DNA of 64,000 bases from Patescibacteria group bacterium (GCA_041662565.1 JBAZSE010000003.1:44260-108259), one strand, 5' to 3'. Positions 5,250-62,508 are shown, counted from the stretch's first letter. Notes: a model not told the origin generated them from the sequence alone. Translations and numbers: made by a program.

Positions 5250-6179
5250 TCAATCTCGTAAATAACCGTTAATAAATTCTTTAGCTGTCATTTCTTTTTT
5301 TCCTTCCGGTTGCAATTTTTCTATCAATAACGCGCCGTGGCCACATTGAATATATAATTTTCCATTATCTACCTGTAGCTGACCAATTAAATTGGATATA
5401 CTTTCAACGGCTTGGGCAGATATTATTTTAGCAGTTTTAAGTTTTAAGTTTTTACTTTTTAGCTCTGTATAGCTTCCTGGCCACTGCGCATAAGCCCTAA
5501 TCTGCCGTTCAATTTGATCTGCACTGTTTTGCCAATCTATTTTGCCGTCTTCCTTATTGATAATTTTACAAAAAGTAGCTTCAGTATTATTTTGAGGTTC
5601 TAACCTAATTTTTCCAGCCAAATAATCCGGTAATGTTTCTACCAGCAATTTTGCTCCCAATCCAGCTAATCTTTCGGATAAACTTTGGTAATTATCATCA
5701 GCTTTAAGTTTTAAGTTTTGAGTTATAAGTTTTGAACCATGATCCATTTTCTCATCCAATTTAATAATGGATACTCCTGTTTCTTTGTCACCATTTAATA
5801 TCGCCGACTGAATGGGGGATGGACCGCGGTACTTTGGCAATAACGATGGATGGATATTTAAAACTCCCAATGGAAATAAATCCAAAATTTCCTGGGGAAT
5901 AATTTTTCCGTAAGCAACCACAATTCCCAGATCAGGTTTTAGTGTTTCAATCTTTAATCTTAAATCTTTTAAATTTTCACAAACTTCTAAACCAAGCATT
6001 TTTGCCTCAACCTTAATTGCTGTTGGCGTTAAAATTTGCTTTCTACCGATTAACTGATCAATTTGAGTTATAACCAAAACAACATTATAGTCATTTTGAA
6101 GTAGGGCCCTTAATGCAGGAACCGCAAACTCGGGAGTACCAAAAAAAAATATCCTTTGCTTTAAATTATTTTTCGTCAT
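5250..6179 (-). CDS. fmt: methionyl-tRNA formyltransferase
   Basis: NIHPSLLPKYRGPSPIQ formyltransferase motif. C-terminal Fmt domain. Overlaps def in the canonical def-fmt arrangement. SD AAGGAG upstream. Confidence 0.9.
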   Translation of the reverse strand: MTKNNLKQRIFFFGTPEFAVPALRALLQNDYNVVLVITQIDQLIGRKQILTPTAIKVEAKMLGLEVCENLKDLRLKIETLKPDLGIVVAYGKIIPQEILDLFPLGVLNIHPSLLPKYRGPSPIQSAILNGDKETGVSIIKLDEKMDHGSKLITQNLKLKADDNYQSLSERLAGLGAKLLVETLPDYLAGKIRLEPQNNTEATFCKIINKEDGKIDWQNSADQIERQIRAYAQWPGSYTELKSKNLKLKTAKIISAQAVESISNLIGQLQVDNGKLYIQCGHGALLIEKLQPEGKKEMTAKEFINGYLRD

Positions 6180-9589: not shown

Positions 9590-9979
9590 ATGTCATATGA
9601 ATCAAGTAGTCCTGAACAAATTTTACCTCAGGAGGATGCCCTAAAAAAAGCTCACAACGTCCATTTAGCAAACCTAGAGCAGGCCATAAATAATGGCTTT
9701 AACCATGAGGCCTATCAATATTTTGGTAATCTTTACCGTCACTTAACCAAATATAAAAAAATATATGATTTTAATGACGAAGAATCCGGTATAGATTTAA
9801 AAAGCATTGGTAAAAAGGTTGCTGACTTTCTTTTAAATTGGGGCCGTAAATACAAAAAAAAGTCAGGCGCTGTTGAAAATATTAAATGGCTTAATGAAAT
9901 TTTAGCCGATATCGGTTTAACTTACCAGGATATCGGCACCACTGAAATTGAAATCGAAACATTTAAACCAGGTTCATGA
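9590..9979 (+). CDS. hypothetical protein (129 aa)
   Basis: ORF with ATGA stop/start overlap into the TagA-family gene, implying co-translation. Confidence 0.5.
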   Translation: MSYESSSPEQILPQEDALKKAHNVHLANLEQAINNGFNHEAYQYFGNLYRHLTKYKKIYDFNDEESGIDLKSIGKKVADFLLNWGRKYKKKSGAVENIKWLNEILADIGLTYQDIGTTEIEIETFKPGS

Positions 9980-10860
9980 AAATTGATATTCTGGGGATTA
10001 AAATTAACGCTATCACCCAAAATCAAGTTTTAGATCAAGTTGAATCTTTTTTTATTCCTAATGGCCAAACACTGGTCAGTAGCCATCAGCTAATTACGGC
10101 CAATCCCGAAATTATTTTAGAATCGCTAAAACACCACAATTATCAAAACTTGATCAACCAATCATCGTTGGTTTTAGCAGATGGCATTGGATTATTATGG
10201 GCTGCTAAATTTTTGTCACTAAAAAGCAATAATCTTTTTTTTGCCGTTATTCAGGCATTTGTTGCCGGTGCAAGTTTATTGCTTTATCCGGATTACGTTA
10301 AAACAATTATTCCACAAAGAATTACCGGAGTTGATTTAATGGAAAAAATCTGTGAGCTAGCAAGCTCATCTCGAGCGCAGTCGAGAGACGAACTTGCTGG
10401 TCAAAAAAATTTAAAAGTTTATCTACTTGGTGGAGAACATGGAATTGCCAAACAGTGTGCTGATAAACTTAAGGAAAAATATTTTAATTTAAAAATTGTT
10501 GGTGCAGAAACCGGGCCAACGATACACGGATCGCACTACACGATCGAGAAAAATTTAATAGATAACATCATAAACTCAAAAGCCGATATTTTATTTGTTG
10601 CTATGGGAGCTCCCAAACAGGATTTTTTTATTCAACAAATTCTACCCCAATTGCCACAAGTAAAACTGGCTATGGGTGTTGGTGGAGCATTTGATTTTAT
10701 TTCCGGCAAAGCCAAACGCGCTCCGCTTATTTACCAGGATCTGGGAATAGAGTGGTTATTCCGCCTGATAAACGAACCGTGGCGATTTTTACGCATCTTA
10801 AATGCCACTATTAGATTTATGTGGAATGTGATAAAATTCAACCAAATTAGCAACCAATAA
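9976..10860 (+). CDS. WecB/TagA/CpsF family glycosyltransferase (GT26)
   Basis: MKIDILGIKIN start. GAPKQDFF motif. ~294 aa, slightly long, apparently because of a 12-aa GC-rich insert. Confidence 0.8.
   Translation: MKIDILGIKINAITQNQVLDQVESFFIPNGQTLVSSHQLITANPEIILESLKHHNYQNLINQSSLVLADGIGLLWAAKFLSLKSNNLFFAVIQAFVAGASLLLYPDYVKTIIPQRITGVDLMEKICELASSSRAQSRDELAGQKNLKVYLLGGEHGIAKQCADKLKEKYFNLKIVGAETGPTIHGSHYTIEKNLIDNIINSKADILFVAMGAPKQDFFIQQILPQLPQVKLAMGVGGAFDFISGKAKRAPLIYQDLGIEWLFRLINEPWRFLRILNATIRFMWNVIKFNQISNQ
10354..10399. repeat. GC-rich (~57%) palindromic in-frame insert within the tagA-family gene
   Basis: AGCAAG ... CTTGCT flanking inverted repeats. Internal CTCGAgcgcagTCGAG palindrome. Encodes the SSSRAQSRDELAG insert. 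Resembles the CGAG-rich core of the 61.3 kb element. Confidence 0.4.
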
Positions 10861-10864
10861 ACAC

Positions 10865-12310
10865 ATGATTAAAACACGTTTTGCGCCATCACCAACCGGC
10901 TATTTGCATATCGGAAGTTTGCGGACAGCCCTTTATAACTACCTTTTTGCCAAGCAAAATAAAGGTATTTTTATGTTGCGTATTGAAGATACTGATCAAA
11001 AAAGGGAAGTATCGGGCGCCCTTGAATCCCTTATTCAAACCCTTCAAAAAATGGGCCTAAATTGGGATGAAGGCCCGGTTATGGATAAAGACCTTAATTT
11101 AACAGAAAAAGGCCAATTTGGGCCATATTTACAGTCAAATCGGCTTAAAATCTATCATGAACAGGCCCTAAAGCTGGTTAAAGAGGGGAAAGCGTATTAT
11201 TGCACTTGTTCACCCGAAAGATTAGCGCAATTAAGAACTGATCAGGAAGCTAAAAATGAAGCGCCTAGATACGACGGACATTGTAGGGATTTGGAAATAA
11301 AAGCTGAAAAGCCGAACGGCAATCAACCATTTGTAATTCGTTTAAAAATTCCCCAAGATAGGGAAGTGGTTTTTAATGATGTGATACGTGGCGAGGTAAA
11401 ATTTAAATCAACCGAAATAGACGATCAGGTTTTAATAAAATCGGACGGTTATCCAACTTATCATTTGGCCAATGTTGTTGACGATCATTTAATGGAAGTT
11501 ACCAATGTGGTTAGAGGAGAGGAATGGTTACCTTCAACTCCAAAACATATTTTGTTATATGAAGCTTTTAGTTGGCAAGCTCCGCAATTTGCCCATCTGC
11601 CGTTATTATTAAACGCAGATAAATCAAAATTATCCAAGCGCCAAGGTGATGTGGCAGTAGAAGATTACTTGGCCAAGGGCTACCTACCGGAAGCTTTGAT
11701 CAATTACGTAGCACTTTTGGGCTGGCATCCAAACAATAACAATGAAATTTTTTCTTTAGCCGATTTGGTAAAACATTTTGATTTGAACAAAGTCCAAAAA
11801 GGCGGAGCCATTTTTGATGTTAACAAGTTAAATTGGTTTAATTGCTATTATATAAAACAACTGCCGGAAAAAGAATTGCTTCAAAGATGCGCGGAATTTT
11901 TACCGAATTTGGATAAAAATATTTTATTAAAAATTCTTAAAGTTGAAAAAGACAGATTAAATAATCTGGGGGATATAGTTGAAAAAGCCAAAATGTTTTT
12001 GGATCTACCCGATTATGATGCCAAAATATTGATCTTCAAAAAATCGACTAAAGAAACAACTCTTAATGGCCTGAACCTGGCTTTATCTGCCTTGGAAAGC
12101 GTTAATGAAAATGATTGGCAAAAAGAAACCTTGAACAAAATTTTATCAAAAACAGTCATAGATAATGGTTTGACTAACGGTGATATTTTTTGGCCTATCA
12201 GAGTAGCCGTTTCCGGGCAAGAAAAAAGCCCGGCTCCGGAAGAGATAATGGAGGTTTTGGGGCAAAAAGACAGTTTAAACAGGATAAACATCGCCATAAA
12301 CAAGCTTTAA
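10865..12310 (+). CDS. gltX: glutamate--tRNA ligase
   Basis: FAPSPTGYLHIGSLRTALYNYLFA class I HIGH region. KLSKR motif. Confidence 0.9.
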   Translation: MIKTRFAPSPTGYLHIGSLRTALYNYLFAKQNKGIFMLRIEDTDQKREVSGALESLIQTLQKMGLNWDEGPVMDKDLNLTEKGQFGPYLQSNRLKIYHEQALKLVKEGKAYYCTCSPERLAQLRTDQEAKNEAPRYDGHCRDLEIKAEKPNGNQPFVIRLKIPQDREVVFNDVIRGEVKFKSTEIDDQVLIKSDGYPTYHLANVVDDHLMEVTNVVRGEEWLPSTPKHILLYEAFSWQAPQFAHLPLLLNADKSKLSKRQGDVAVEDYLAKGYLPEALINYVALLGWHPNNNNEIFSLADLVKHFDLNKVQKGGAIFDVNKLNWFNCYYIKQLPEKELLQRCAEFLPNLDKNILLKILKVEKDRLNNLGDIVEKAKMFLDLPDYDAKILIFKKSTKETTLNGLNLALSALESVNENDWQKETLNKILSKTVIDNGLTNGDIFWPIRVAVSGQEKSPAPEEIMEVLGQKDSLNRINIAINKL

Positions 12311-15957: not shown

Positions 15958-17216
15958 ATATTTATCAAAGCGGTTATCTTTTGGGCATCATCAAGAGATA
16001 TTCCCCGATGATTAGGTAAATTAAGTGTTTGTCGGGCCGCTTGTTCGGCCACCGGGCAATTTCCCAAAATATAACCGGCCGAACTTAAATTTGCTTTTTG
16101 GGGAGCAATTGTTTGATCATACCAGTTGCCGGCAATCACGCCATGTTGCTTTAAAAAACCAACAAGCGATTTTTTATCCTCAACCAAAATTGTAAAACGA
16201 AGGTAAATGTTCTCGCTTAATGCTTCAAGTGGATAAATTATTTTAATTTTTTCGGTATTTAAATTATGAGCATAATAATAAGCAATTTTTTGACGGTGAA
16301 AATTAACAACCGTTAATTTTTTAAGCTCTGCTAATGCCAATACTGCCAAGCAGTTGGGCAGGGCATAATTTAAAATTGACAAATCACGGCAATTATTTTC
16401 ATTTGCCGAGGTAATTTTAGGTATAAAATTAAATTTCTTAGCTAAGGTGATTATAATTTTACCTAATGACAAAAAATCATACAGACAATAGCTTTTTAGG
16501 GCAATAACTGGATAAAAAATATTCTGCCAAACTTTAATCAACGGCAAATCAGCCAATTTTGTCGGCAAATTATTAAACAAATCTTGATTATTGGTGCAAA
16601 GCATTCCCCCATTGACCGCAGAAATAACTTTATCCCGGCCAAAACTAAAAACCGAAAATTCACCGAAAGTTCCAACCAATTGGTTTTGATACTTAGCTCC
16701 TAATGAATGAGCACAATCTTCCACTAATTTAAGGTTATACTTGGCACAAAGGTGCAAAATTTTACTCAAATCAATGGGCTGGCCAAAAGTGTGTTGAACA
16801 ATAATAACCTTAGCACGCGGACTAATTAATTTTTCCAATTTTTCCAGATCAAAATTTAAATCTGAAAGATTAATATCGCCGTAAACAATTTTAGCGCCAC
16901 AAGCCAAAACCGCATTAGCCACCGAAACGCAAGTATAGGCCTGAACAATCACCTCATCACCCTCCCCTATTTTTAGCGCGCGCAGCCCGTGATACAAAGC
17001 TCCTCGAGCATTGTAAAAAGATCGAGCGTATTTTATTTTAAAATTTTCGATAAAATACTTTTCCAAGTTCTTTGCACCTTGCCCATGCCTTATTTTAAAC
17101 AAACGCCAGGGCAATAAAAAACTTAAAGCTAGCCAAGCCTGGGCCCAAGAAATCGTGGTAAAAAATGATGCAGTAAGAGTTTTCATAAGCAACGTAGAGC
17201 AAATCCCGCTAAGCAA
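15939..17216 (-). CDS. DegT/DnrJ/EryC1/StrS-family PLP-dependent aminotransferase (start probably the ATG at 17186)
   Basis: DEVIVQAYTCVSVANAV, LVEDCAHSLGAKY and SFGRDK (Schiff-base Lys) motifs. The tracked start is TTG. N-terminal ~40 aa are hydrophobic and atypical for the family. Confidence 0.75.
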   Translation of the reverse strand: MLSGICSTLLMKTLTASFFTTISWAQAWLALSFLLPWRLFKIRHGQGAKNLEKYFIENFKIKYARSFYNARGALYHGLRALKIGEGDEVIVQAYTCVSVANAVLACGAKIVYGDINLSDLNFDLEKLEKLISPRAKVIIVQHTFGQPIDLSKILHLCAKYNLKLVEDCAHSLGAKYQNQLVGTFGEFSVFSFGRDKVISAVNGGMLCTNNQDLFNNLPTKLADLPLIKVWQNIFYPVIALKSYCLYDFLSLGKIIITLAKKFNFIPKITSANENNCRDLSILNYALPNCLAVLALAELKKLTVVNFHRQKIAYYYAHNLNTEKIKIIYPLEALSENIYLRFTILVEDKKSLVGFLKQHGVIAGNWYDQTIAPQKANLSSAGYILGNCPVAEQAARQTLNLPNHRGISLDDAQKITALINIWQKLN

Positions 17217-17271
17217 AACGAGCCAACCCGCTTCGCCAGAGCTTCAGCGAGGCGAGGGAGTTTACATGTAA
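17217..17271. repeat. GC-rich CGAG/GCGAGG-rich intergenic patch between murF and the aminotransferase
   Basis: ~60% GC in a ~35% GC genome. Contains CCCGCT direct repeats and GCGAGGCGAGGGAG. Confidence 0.3.
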
Positions 17272-49359: not shown

Positions 49360-49433
49360 GCAGGTATAGTTTAACGGTAGAATATATCCTTCCCAAGGAT
49401 AGGGTACGGGTTCAATTCCCGTTACCTGCTCCA
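49360..49433 (+). tRNA. tRNA-Gly (anticodon CCC), CCA encoded
   Basis: Cloverleaf GCAGGTA/TACCTGC acceptor, anticodon loop CTTCCCAAG, T-arm GGTTCAATTCC. Confidence 0.85.
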
Positions 49434-49475
49434 TTCGACTCGTCCCGACATTCGTCGGGACTCGCTTTAATTCCT

Positions 49476-49551
49476 GCCGATGTAGCTCAATTGGTAGAGC
49501 AACGGTATCGTAAACCGTAGGTTGTCGGTTCAATTCCGACCATCGGCTCCA
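49476..49551 (+). tRNA. tRNA-Thr (anticodon CGT), CCA encoded
   Basis: Acceptor GCCGATG/CATCGGC, D-arm TAGCTCAATTGGTAGAGCA, anticodon stem ACGGT/ACCGT with loop ATCGTAA. Confidence 0.85.
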
Positions 49552-61252: not shown

Positions 61253-61383
61253 ACGAGGGTAAGTAAAATTTTTTTCGGTCCGAGCCGGGTCCCCCCGAAC
61301 GAGCCTGGGCGAGCGATTCGAGCGAGACCCTGGCGAGTTGAGGAAGGGAGGCGCAGGACAAAAAAATTTTACTTACCCGAGGG
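61253..61383. repeat. MITE-like element: 18-19 bp AT-rich terminal inverted repeats enclosing an 85-nt ~68% GC, CGAG-rich core
   Basis: GGGTAAGTAAAATTTTTTT (61256..61274) and AAAAAAATTTTACTTACCC (61360..61378) are perfect reverse complements. CGAG is present on both outer flanks. The core has no ATG in either sense. The right arm overlaps the last codons and stop of the GT4 gene. Confidence 0.45.
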
Positions 61384-62508
61384 AACATTCAAATTAAATT
61401 CTCTAAAAACTTCCAACATTTGTTTGGCTGATTGTTCCCAAGAATACTTTTTAACCTGCTCAAAACCATTGGCGATAAGTTTGCTTCTTAAATTATTATC
61501 GCTTAATGCCAAATGCATGGTTTGGGCGATTTCTTTAATATTATATGGATCAACCAAAATGGCTGCTTGAGCCAAAACCTCGGGCATTGAAGAATTAGCC
61601 GAAGCAATTACCGGCACTCCGGCTCGCATGGCTTCGAGCGGTGGAAAGCCAAAGCCCTCGTAAAATGACGGCCAAACAAATAAATCGGCTCGTTGATACA
61701 ACTCAGATTGTTGGGCGGGCGTAACATAGCCCAAAAATTTAACCCTGTTGCCCAATTTTAATTGACGGACCAGTTGAATTAGCTTGCTATACTGCCAGCC
61801 CGCCCCGCCGGCTAAAACCAAATGATACTGGGGATTATTTAACAAATGAAAAGCTTTAATAATCCCAATAATATTTTTGCGCGGTTCCAATGTGCCCAAA
61901 AATAAAATATATTTATCCGGTAAATCAAATGGTAATGTTTTAGGCAAATAATTTTTTACCTCAATCGGCCCTGGATAAATCACTTTGATTTTATCTGGAA
62001 GTAAATCGTAAGTAGTTATCAAATCATCTTTGGTACTTTGCGATACAGCTACGATTTTAGCGGCATTTTTTAATTTTTGGTTGATTCCTATGGCCTTATG
62101 CCATAAGCGCATTTTAGGCGAATAAAGTTCTGAAGTTTTGATAAACGATAAATCATGGACAGTAACTATTGTTGGGCAACCGGGCGAAACGGACCAAAAA
62201 TTTAAATTGGGAAACCAGAAAATATCAGCTCCCCCAACCAAACGATCAAGATAGGGCTTGCCTAAAAATTTGAGCGAAAAATTAAATAATTTATTGGGAA
62301 TTTTTTTGGAATAATAAGTTGTATTTTTACCTTTAACCAGCTGCTGAGCGATTTTATTTTCCTTGATTGAATTGGAAAATAAAACGTATTGGTTTTCTTG
62401 ATCCAATTCAAATAATTTTTCCAACAACTTGTAAGCGTAAAATCCAACTCCGGTTAAATTTCCTCCGCCTAATAATCCCCTTGCATCAATGGCAATTTTC
62501 ATAATCAA
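61369..62508 (-). CDS. family 4 glycosyltransferase (start likely the ATG at 62502)
   Basis: EGFGFPPLEAMRAGVPVIASANSS motif. Confidence 0.8.
   Translation of the reverse strand: MIMKIAIDARGLLGGGNLTGVGFYAYKLLEKLFELDQENQYVLFSNSIKENKIAQQLVKGKNTTYYSKKIPNKLFNFSLKFLGKPYLDRLVGGADIFWFPNLNFWSVSPGCPTIVTVHDLSFIKTSELYSPKMRLWHKAIGINQKLKNAAKIVAVSQSTKDDLITTYDLLPDKIKVIYPGPIEVKNYLPKTLPFDLPDKYILFLGTLEPRKNIIGIIKAFHLLNNPQYHLVLAGGAGWQYSKLIQLVRQLKLGNRVKFLGYVTPAQQSELYQRADLFVWPSFYEGFGFPPLEAMRAGVPVIASANSSMPEVLAQAAILVDPYNIKEIAQTMHLALSDNNLRSKLIANGFEQVKKYSWEQSAKQMLEVFREFNLNVPSGK

What the first reader, a model, noticed from the sequence alone, without database searches (positions are those of the whole stretch)
10354..10399. 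In-frame 36-nt GC-rich palindromic insertion inside the tagA/wecG-family gene, related in motif to the 61.3 kb element
The WecB/TagA/CpsF gene carries a ~57% GC segment gagctagcaagctcatctcgagcgcagtcgagagacgaacttgctgg. It has 6-bp flanking inverted repeats AGCAAG/CTTGCT and an internal CTCGAgcgcagTCGAG palindrome. It adds 12 residues (SSSRAQSRDELAG) at a position where TagA homologs normally have a short ELAAEKG-type linker; that 12-aa excess is recalled from memory, not from a computed alignment. Its CGAGCG-N3-TCGAG-(C)GAGAC core closely matches gcgagcgattcgagcgagac in the 61.3 kb element. In-frame insertion of palindromic elements into ORFs is what Rickettsia palindromic elements (RPEs) do, so this may be a small selfish-element family that tolerates or creates peptide insertions.
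Basis: partly seen in the sequence, partly recalled or inferred. Interest (0 to 1): 0.5.

Follow-up and report, generated by a model that had tools for sequence, protein, structure and literature searches.

The report
Palindromic 36-base insertion inside tagA
A cell-wall enzyme gene of an uncultured Patescibacteria bacterium carries a real 36-base hairpin-forming insertion that adds a floppy 12-residue surface loop; it turns up at the same spot in only one other, non-sister lineage, so it looks like a rare transferable DNA snippet, not a member of a repeat family.

Summary
The sequence is as described. It is a 36-nt in-frame insertion (envelope 10360-10401) in a TagA/WecG gene (9976-10860). 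It forms a -22 kcal/mol hairpin, the third strongest 50-nt hairpin region in the 64 kb window.

It is absent from 118 of 120 homologues examined and from two syntenic orthologues. In a confident AlphaFold model it lies in a low-confidence loop between helix 118-131 and strand 147-152.

Two claims do not hold. The GC content is only in the top 2% of 36-nt windows.

No second copy was found in the window, in 185,579 species genomes, in 241 million metagenome records or in viral contigs. The one exception is the same codon position of tagA in one other Patescibacteria lineage (27/36 nt identical). That lineage was never sister to this one in 300 bootstrap trees.

Best reading: a short palindromic segment gained twice or transferred between lineages, tolerated as a neutral loop. 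It behaves like an RPE or a mitochondrial GC cluster, but it is not shown to be multi-copy.

Separately, other TagA orthologues carry other GC-rich hairpin inserts. One of these matches an intergenic element at 17.2 kb of this window almost exactly.

The parts
9976..10860 (+). WecB/TagA/CpsF-family glycosyltransferase gene (294 aa), the host of the insertion
   Evidence: ORF listed. Pfam PF03808 E 1.3e-49. PDB TagA 7mpk E 3.8e-37. AlphaFold model with pLDDT 92.7 matches TagA 7n41 with TM 0.93 normalised to the target. Synteny with orthologues is conserved: 516-aa protein, ~125-aa protein, tagA, gltX.
10360..10401 (+). Envelope of the 36-nt (12-codon) in-frame insertion. The boundaries are ambiguous by 6 nt: residues 131-142 (10366-10401) in alignment A1, or residues 129-140 (10360-10395) in the register shared with P0024.
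   Evidence: 12-column gap against 40 of 41 aligned homologues. Absent from syntenic orthologues L006 and L007. P0024 has 12 extra codons in the same register, 27/36 nt identical.
10356..10374 (+). 5' arm of the hairpin. It includes AGCAAG and TCTCGA, and its outer part overlaps the ancestral E-L-A-S codons.
10375..10380 (+). Hairpin loop GCGCAG
10381..10401 (+). 3' arm of the hairpin. It includes TCGAGA and CTTGCT and has a 3-nt bulge because GAGAGA can pair in two registers.

Best explanation
Shown:
- A 36-nt imperfect palindrome sits in frame in the tagA gene of a Patescibacteria (CPR) genome of about 37% GC.
- It lies in the stretch that encodes the turn between helix 118-131 and strand 147-152.
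- It adds about 12 residues (SSRAQSRDELAG) that are predicted to be a disordered surface loop, while the TagA fold is kept.
- A homologous copy (75% nt identity, same codon register, same three different Ser codons in a row) exists at the same site in one other TagA lineage that is not its sister. All sampled closer relatives of both lineages lack it.

Inferred:
- The segment is a small transferable palindromic DNA. Either it entered this permissive, sequence-conserved site independently in two lineages, or it was moved between them by recombination.
- It persists because an in-frame insertion in this loop is harmless.
- The hairpin is the likely substrate of whatever inserted it, by analogy with single-strand hairpin-handling transposition or recombination. 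That analogy was not tested here.
- The P0024 copy has decayed. Its differences are mainly second-position transitions, and it no longer folds.
- In behaviour it resembles Rickettsia palindromic elements and mitochondrial GC clusters. It is not shown to be a repeat family and is unrelated to the 61.3 kb element.
For: - The insertion is real and restricted.
- Hairpin strength.
- Loop location and retained fold.
- P0024 copy: same register, 27/36 nt identical, AGC-TCA-TCT shared. It was recovered from two independent assemblies, L001 from ENA and L015 from JGI.
- Non-sister status. In the NJ tree WIN groups with P0002-P0008 and P0018, while P0024 groups with P0036, P0019 and P0021.
- In 300 bootstraps the two were never sisters. 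The smallest clade holding both had a median of 29 of 42 taxa. WIN grouped away from P0024 in 87% of replicates.
- Insert identity of 75% compares with 36% at 58 four-fold degenerate sites of the same gene pair, P 2e-6 if the insert is neutral. Third positions match at 9/12 against 0.478 in the rest of the gene, P 0.054.
- Short GC-rich hairpins do move between loci in this clade. The P0007 insert equals the window's 17.2 kb element at 31/33 nt, P0019 insert 1 and the P0027 insert match at 27/33, and the second inserts of P0024 and P0019 match at 21/24.
Against: - No donor or second copy was found anywhere: the window, 185,579 species genomes (one chance hit), 241 M metagenome records (eight chance hits plus P0024's own tagA) and viral contigs.
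- No clear target-site duplication. GAGCTAGCA and GAACTTGCT match at only 6/9.
- No co-conversion tract in the upstream flank.
- Amino-acid identity of the insert (50%) is about that of the rest of the protein (55%). Against the whole-gene nucleotide rate the excess similarity is not significant, P 0.11. Constraint on an old insertion therefore cannot be excluded.
- The tree is from 264 columns, by NJ only.
- The source genome (809 kb contig) could be examined only over the 64 kb window.
Confidence: 0.45

Rival explanations
1. One ancient insertion occurred in the common ancestor of this TagA clade. It was then lost repeatedly and precisely, for example by palindrome-stimulated slipped-strand deletion between the flanking E-L-A codon repeats. 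It was retained in two lineages because the loop or the hairpin is under some constraint.
For: Same site and same register in both lineages. The insert's amino-acid identity (50%) is close to the gene average (55%), and its nucleotide identity is not significantly above the whole-gene rate, P 0.11. No donor copy was found anywhere. From established knowledge, palindromes flanked by short direct repeats are deletion-prone.
Against: It needs many independent exact losses. The smallest clade holding both carriers has a median of 29 of 42 taxa, and 118 of 120 homologues lack the insert. The loop is predicted to be disordered, pLDDT 57, which argues against protein-level constraint. The hairpin is not conserved in P0024, z +1.4, which argues against structure-level constraint.
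Confidence: 0.27
2. The palindrome was made in place by a replication template switch (quasi-palindrome or fold-back synthesis) that copied the neighbouring codons in inverted orientation. It never was a mobile element.
For: One arm of the outer stem (AGCAAGC, codons A-S) is the ancestral gene sequence present in the orthologues, and the other arm is its inverted copy. No other copy exists.
Against: The inner 20 nt (TCTCGAGCGCAGTCGAGAGA) have no template nearby, since no hit of 12 nt or more was found in the window. An in-place origin cannot by itself explain a 75% identical copy in a non-sister lineage.
Confidence: 0.1
3. The insertion is an adaptive addition. It could be a Ser/Arg-rich regulatory or interaction loop of TagA, or an mRNA hairpin that modulates translation or stability of the tagA-gltX transcript.
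For: It has been kept in frame in two lineages. SSSR and S-[RK]-D are conserved between them. A strong mRNA hairpin is present in the window copy.
Against: Six of the 12 residues differ. Eight of the nine differing nucleotides fall in non-synonymous codon changes. The region is predicted to be disordered. The hairpin is lost in P0024. The insert is absent from nearly all homologues, which presumably function without it.
Confidence: 0.1
4. It is a member of the same selfish-element family as the 61.3 kb element.
For: The shared words CGAGCG and TCGAG give a local alignment score of 11, at P about 0.03 uncorrected.
Against: The score is not significant after correction for 8 comparisons, and the P0024 copy gives P 0.15. 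The architectures differ: the 61.3 kb element is 131 nt with 19-nt perfect AT-rich terminal repeats and dG -60. blastn finds no cross-hit.
Confidence: 0.04

Closest known systems
Rickettsia palindromic elements (RPEs)
   Same: Palindromic DNA inserted in frame into unrelated housekeeping genes and translated as an extra surface peptide compatible with the fold. Presence is patchy among relatives (PMC10969869 for the RPE description; here).
   Different: RPEs are about 150 bp and fall into ten families. They occur 44 times in one R. conorii genome, each with a conserved peptide (PMC10969869). This element is 36 nt, is known at a single site only, comes from a different phylum, and showed no second copy in any search.
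Mitochondrial palindromic GC clusters (e.g. yeast GC42) and, from memory, the double-hairpin elements of Allomyces mitochondria
   Same: Hairpins of 30-50 nt that are richer in GC than an AT-rich host genome. Their distribution between lineages is sporadic and there is evidence of horizontal spread (PMC4478555). In-frame occurrence in coding regions is recalled from memory for yeast var1 and for the Allomyces elements.
   Different: GC42 is highly multi-copy, has a defined AG target and shows structural constraint across copies (PMC4478555). Here there are two copies in two organisms at one site, the hairpin is not conserved in the second copy, and GC is only 58%.
MITEs, and REP or palindrome-associated elements mobilised by IS200/IS605 or RAYT transposases
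   Same: A short non-coding hairpin with terminal inverted repeats. Insertion without an obvious duplication would fit the IS200/IS605 mode (established knowledge).
   Different: There is no multi-copy family, no clear target-site duplication and no parent transposase identified. At 36 nt it is at the very bottom of the size range.
The GC-rich hairpin inserts of other Patescibacteria TagA orthologues and the window's own 17.2 kb element
   Same: Same gene, same kind of site (surface loops; P0007's insert is 3 codons downstream), in frame, hairpin-forming, patchy.
   Different: Those inserts are related to one another, with significant pairwise alignments, and occur at different loci. The 36-mer shows no similarity to any of them, P 0.18-1.0.

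Membership tests
Rickettsia palindromic elements (RPE) | Length about 100-150 bp | tested here: not met
   The net insertion is 36 nt. RPE size is taken from PMC10969869.
Rickettsia palindromic elements (RPE) | Many dispersed copies per genome, in unrelated genes and spacers | tested here: inconclusive
   No second copy in the 64 kb window, which is about 8% of the 809 kb contig. No copy outside tagA in the genome, metagenome or viral scans. The source genome itself is in neither collection, so most of it was not examined.
Rickettsia palindromic elements (RPE) | Palindromic, with a stable predicted hairpin | tested here: met
   dG -22 kcal/mol, z -2.35 and -3.24. Top 3 of the hairpin regions in the window.
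Rickettsia palindromic elements (RPE) | In-frame insertion that is translated and lies on the protein surface | tested here: met
   12 codons with no stop. Coil 132-146 with pLDDT 57 in a model of pLDDT 92.7. Translation itself was not tested.
Rickettsia palindromic elements (RPE) | Sequence similarity to an RPE family, and a Rickettsia host | tested here: not met
   The host is a Patescibacteria group bacterium. No Rfam or other family match. No direct comparison with RPE consensus sequences was made.
MITE | Terminal inverted repeats | tested here: met
   Arms 10359-10372 and 10385-10398, 14 nt and 86% complementary, plus an inner 6-bp pair.
MITE | Target-site duplication | tested here: inconclusive
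   GAGCTAGCA and GAACTTGCT (E-L-A and E-L-A) match at 6/9. In P0024, GAACTAGTA and GGACAAGCT match at 5/9.
MITE | Multi-copy family and a related autonomous IS | tested here: not met
   No other copy found. A parent transposase was not searched for.
Mitochondrial-type palindromic GC clusters | Palindrome of 30-50 nt, GC-rich relative to an AT-rich genome | tested here: met
   36-42 nt at 57-58% GC in a genome of 36.8% GC. The contrast is modest: top 2.1% of 36-nt windows.
Mitochondrial-type palindromic GC clusters | Sporadic (non-phylogenetic) distribution among lineages | tested here: met
   Two non-sister carriers among 120 homologues. In 300 bootstraps they were never sisters.
Mitochondrial-type palindromic GC clusters | High copy number, with the secondary structure conserved across copies | tested here: not met
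   Single site only. The P0024 copy does not fold: dG -5.2, z +1.43.
Same family as the 61.3 kb element of this window | Significant sequence similarity or shared architecture | tested here: not met
   The architecture of the 61.3 kb element is shown.
WecG/TagA/CpsF glycosyltransferase (host gene) | PF03808 domain and the TagA fold | tested here: met

The most novel reading that the evidence does not exclude
Patescibacteria carry a class of very short (30-80 nt) hairpin mini-elements, analogous to mitochondrial GC clusters. These elements spread between genomes and loci and are repeatedly fixed in frame in permissive protein loops. The tagA 36-mer would be a site-specific ('homing') member that targets one conserved codon position and so creates lineage-specific peptide loops in an otherwise streamlined genome.
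Probability: 0.25. Interest if true: 0.65.

Novelty: new variant of a known kind. Interest (0 to 1): 0.4.

Why it matters
On its own this is a small and probably neutral insertion in one gene. Its value is as one data point. In the tiny, AT-rich genomes of CPR bacteria, short hairpin-forming DNA segments do land in frame in essential cell-envelope genes and are shared between non-sister lineages.

Taken with the other TagA inserts and the 17.2 kb element, it points to a process of protein-loop creation by mobile palindromes. That process is described for Rickettsia and for mitochondria, but the paper library searched here holds no description of it for Patescibacteria. Such inserts would also be useful strain or lineage markers, and a caution for alignment-based annotation.

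Tried and rejected
- **Fragment protein search:** the 59-aa fragment around the insert returned nothing because of the word-index rule. That search was wasted.
- **HMMER search of the same fragment:** against 1.84 billion representatives it gave only the source protein and two irrelevant hits. The query was too short for that database size.
- **Genome scan:** a tolerant pattern gave one chance hit in a high-GC Acidobacteriota MAG.
- **Metagenome scan:** eight chance hits in GC-rich contigs plus P0024's own tagA.
- **Viral scan:** none.
- **Rfam on the insert:** chance-level hits only. A templated copy of a conserved RNA gene is therefore not supported.
- **Tandem duplication:** rejected. The 12 upstream codons are unlike the insert (read directly from the sequence).
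- **Co-conversion tract upstream of the insert:** rejected. The flank is equally conserved in all gene pairs.
- **Sister relationship of the two carriers:** rejected by bootstrap.
- **Pervasive palindromic insertions in this genome:** rejected for the 14 syntenic gene pairs compared with L006. Of three window-specific insertions of 6 aa or more, only the tagA one is a hairpin.
- **Correction to an earlier figure:** one search used a register shifted by one codon. One search gives the corrected and weaker statistics.

Full report
**Where we are.** The window has about 37% GC. Its TagA protein is identical to one annotated as 'MAG: WecB/TagA/CpsF family glycosyltransferase [Patescibacteria group bacterium]' on an 809,043-nt contig.
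- The gene is 9976-10860 on the + strand, 294 aa.
- It matches Pfam PF03808 at E 1.3e-49 and the solved TagA of entries 7mpk and 7n41 at E 3.8e-37.
- Gene order is conserved in two related genomes, L006 and L007: a ~516-aa protein, a ~125-aa protein, tagA, gltX, an M23 peptidase, FemAB, DegT, a Mur ligase. These are therefore true orthologues.

**The observation.** The quoted sequence is present at 10354-10400.
- Codons are E127 L128 A129 S130 S131 S132 R133 A134 Q135 S136 R137 D138 E139 L140 A141 G142 Q143.
They are part of longer arms, 10359-10372 and 10385-10398 (14 nt, 86% complementary), plus TCTCGA/TCGAGA.
- As RNA the 49-mer folds to -22.0 kcal/mol (z -2.35), and its complement to -21.9 (z -3.24).
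- In a scan of 12,790 overlapping 50-nt windows (mean -5.8, sd 3.5) only 18 regions reach -18 kcal/mol. This one, at -21.4, is the third strongest.
- GC content is not special. The maximum is 58.3% per 36 nt, a value reached by 2.1% of all 36-nt windows, and there are about 180 such islands.

**Is it an insertion?** Yes.
- In a MAFFT alignment of 42 homologues (45-65% identical) the window protein has exactly 12 extra columns between 'CELAS' and 'QKN'.
- Reading all 120 listed homologues, only P0024 also has extra residues at this site. P0007 has a different 10-residue insert three residues downstream.
- The syntenic orthologues read GAA CTC GCC AGC | CGA AAA AAC (L006). The window reads GAG CTA GCA AGC, then 36 nt, then CAA AAA AAT.
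- The boundaries are ambiguous by six nucleotides because E-L-A occurs on both sides. The envelope is 10360-10401.

**Where it sits in the protein.** AlphaFold2 with the 42-sequence alignment gives a confident model, mean pLDDT 92.7 and pTM 0.91.
- Helix 118-131 is followed by coil 132-146 and strand 147-152.
- Mean pLDDT is 57 for residues 131-140 and 79 for 141-150, against 95-98 on either side.
- The model superposes on TagA 7n41 and 7mpk with TM 0.91-0.93 normalised to the target.
- The insert is therefore a disordered loop at the end of a helix, and the fold is kept.

**The link to the 61.3 kb element does not hold.**
The insert has TCGAGAGAC where the pattern needs TCGAG(N)GAGAC.
- blastn-short finds no cross-match.
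- The best local alignment scores 11. That score is reached by 3.1% of shuffles and by 3.6% of 358 GC-matched natural 40-mers from the window. With eight elements compared this is not significant, and the P0024 copy gives P 0.15.
- The 61.3 kb element is a different object: 131 nt, with perfect 19-nt AT-rich terminal inverted repeats around a GC-rich core, dG -60 kcal/mol, z -5.6.

**Is it a repeat family?** No other copy was found.
- The window holds none.
- A tolerant pattern scanned against one genome from each of 185,579 species gave one chance hit in a high-GC Acidobacteriota contig.
- A still looser pattern against 241 million metagenome records gave nine hits. Eight are chance hits in GC-rich DNA. 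The ninth (L015) is the tagA of the P0024 lineage.
- Viral contigs gave none.
- Rfam gives only chance-level matches.
- The source contig itself is in neither collection, so 92% of the genome remains unexamined.
- Among 14 gene pairs syntenic with L006, the window has three private insertions of at least 6 residues. Only the tagA one is a hairpin. This genome region is therefore not peppered with such inserts.

**The second copy.** P0024 comes from a genome fragment of 30.6% GC and was recovered in two independent assemblies (L001 from ENA, L015 from JGI). It has 12 extra codons in the same register.
- P0024 reads GTA AGC TCA TCT CGG GTG GAT TCG AAA GAC GGA CAA. The window reads GCA AGC TCA TCT CGA GCG CAG TCG AGA GAC GAA CTT.
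- That is 27/36 nt identical, including three different serine codons in a row. This is common descent of the DNA, not convergence.
- The two host proteins are only 56% identical, rank 28 of 41 for the window protein. Each has relatives at 67% identity that lack the insert.
- In 300 bootstrap NJ trees the two were never sisters. The smallest clade holding both had a median of 29 of 42 taxa. The window protein grouped with P0002-P0008 and P0018, away from P0024, in 87% of replicates.
- A search seeded with P0024 found no closer relative; its best hit is 59% identical.

**Age of the insert.** In the correct register the insert is 75% identical, against 64% for the rest of the gene (P 0.11).
- Third positions match at 9/12, against 0.478 for the rest of the gene (P 0.054).
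- The 58 four-fold degenerate sites of the same gene pair are only 36% identical. If the insert were evolving neutrally since the genes split, 27/36 would have P about 2e-6.
- So either the insert copies are younger than the gene split (transfer or repeated insertion), or the insert is under constraint.
- Three facts argue against constraint. Six of 12 residues differ. The loop is predicted to be disordered. The P0024 copy no longer folds, z +1.43.
- Two facts argue against recombinational transfer with long flanks. There is no co-conversion signal upstream, because that flank is equally conserved in all gene pairs. An earlier calculation used a register shifted by one codon and overstated the signal.

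**Mechanism.** I commit to this reading: a short palindromic DNA segment that is transferable between lineages, or was inserted twice, at a conserved and permissive site, and is kept because it is harmless as a loop.
- One arm of the outer stem is the ancestral A-S codons. This fits either an element whose end pairs with its target or a fold-back origin.
- The inner 20 nt have no local template.
- The actual insertion chemistry is inference. No transposase was looked for.
- The main rival is a single ancient gain with many exact losses. It is less parsimonious but not excluded.

**Context that supports the kind, not the membership.** Other TagA orthologues carry other in-frame, GC-rich, strongly folding inserts in other loops.
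- P0024 has a second insert with dG -24.2 kcal/mol. P0019 has an 80-nt insert with dG -45.6.
- These inserts are related to each other across lineages, loops and orientations. P0019 insert 1 (reverse complement) matches the P0027 insert at 27/33, and the second inserts of P0024 and P0019 match at 21/24.
- P0007's insert is AACTCGCCTCGCTTAAGCTCCGGCGAAGCGGGTTGG. It is 31/33 identical to the minus strand of an intergenic element at 17200-17262 of this window.
- That window element fills an 85-nt spacer between the Mur-ligase and DegT genes. In L006 and L007 those two genes overlap by 4 nt.
- Mobile short GC-rich hairpins therefore exist in this clade. The 36-mer shows no sequence similarity to any of them, P 0.18-1.0.

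**Comparison with known systems.**
- RPEs are about 150 bp, fall into ten families and occur 44 times in R. conorii, often in frame (PMC10969869). The behaviour is the same here, but size, copy number and taxon are not.
- Yeast mitochondrial GC42 is a 42-bp palindromic, mobile, sporadically distributed GC cluster (PMC4478555). Size, palindromy and sporadic distribution match. Copy number and conserved structure do not.
- No paper in the searched library describes such elements in Patescibacteria. This is weak evidence of novelty.

**Verdict.** The finding is a real, tidy, probably neutral in-frame palindromic insertion with an unexpectedly patchy distribution. The family claim and the link to the 61.3 kb element fail. 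The general idea of hairpin elements creating peptide loops is supported in this clade by other elements.

Noticed in passing
window 17200-17262 (element read on the - strand); spacer 17187-17271: A GC-rich hairpin element, CTCGCCTCGCTGAAGCTCTGGCGAAGCGGG, fills an 85-nt spacer between the Mur-ligase and DegT genes. In relatives L006 and L007 those genes overlap by 4 nt. It is 31/33 nt identical to an in-frame 10-residue insert (SPRLSSGEAG) in the tagA of another Patescibacteria organism (P0007, L003 about 493-528). This is clear evidence that this 30-mer moves between loci and lineages. It is single-copy in the window.
   Followed up: partly
L001 1776-1830; L002 about 310-370 and 760-870; L003 about 120-215 and 493-528; L004 about 5325-5365: TagA orthologues carry several other in-frame GC-rich hairpin inserts in different surface loops, with dG down to -45.6 kcal/mol. 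They are significantly related to each other across lineages, loops and orientations. Examples are CCGTGCCTGCC..GCTTCGCC in P0024 and P0019, and AATTTCCC.GCC.GAGGC.GG in P0019 and P0027. TagA looks like a recurrent landing site.
   Followed up: partly
L017 10547-10576, L018 7301-7330, L019 8397-8426 (IMG/VR contigs): The same 30-mer core (29/30 identical to the window's 17.2 kb element) occurs in three near-identical phage-like contigs of 68% GC. There it lies in a ~195-nt intergenic cluster of GC hairpins after a 141-aa ORF. It is not found in the annotated phage or plasmid collections. Why a 37%-GC CPR genome and a 68%-GC phage share it is unexplained. The core contains GCGAAGC, recalled from memory as an unusually stable DNA mini-hairpin.
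   Followed up: partly
window 61255-61385: The '61.3 kb element' is a 131-nt structure with perfect 19-nt AT-rich terminal inverted repeats (GGGTAAGTAAAATTTTTTT / AAAAAAATTTTACTTACCC) around a GC-rich core. dG is -60 kcal/mol and z is -5.6. It is intergenic, MITE-like and single-copy in the window, and it is unrelated to the tagA insert.
   Followed up: partly
window 10219-10299 (TagA residues 82-108): This Patescibacteria TagA clade has an extra hydrophobic segment of about 25-30 residues (helix 87-103, confidently modelled) between the DG.G motif and the G.D motif. It is absent from the solved T. italicus TagA and from some shorter homologues of 243-249 aa. It may be a membrane-association feature.
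   Followed up: no
L006 7096-7628; L007 12007-12539; L002 1349-1872: Relatives have an antitoxin/ParE-YafQ-like toxin pair downstream of tagA (between tagA and gltX in L006 and L007). The window has none: tagA is followed directly by gltX at 10865.
   Followed up: no
window 49360-49551: tRNA-Gly(CCC) and tRNA-Thr(CGT) are separated by a 42-nt spacer that holds a GC-rich hairpin (TCGACTCGTCCCGACATTCGTCGGGACTCG).
   Followed up: no
L003 about 175-208 (P0007 tagA, N-terminal loop): A tandem ACAAGCT x4 repeat lies next to a GC-rich hairpin insert inside the coding region (translated as STSYKLQATS).
   Followed up: no
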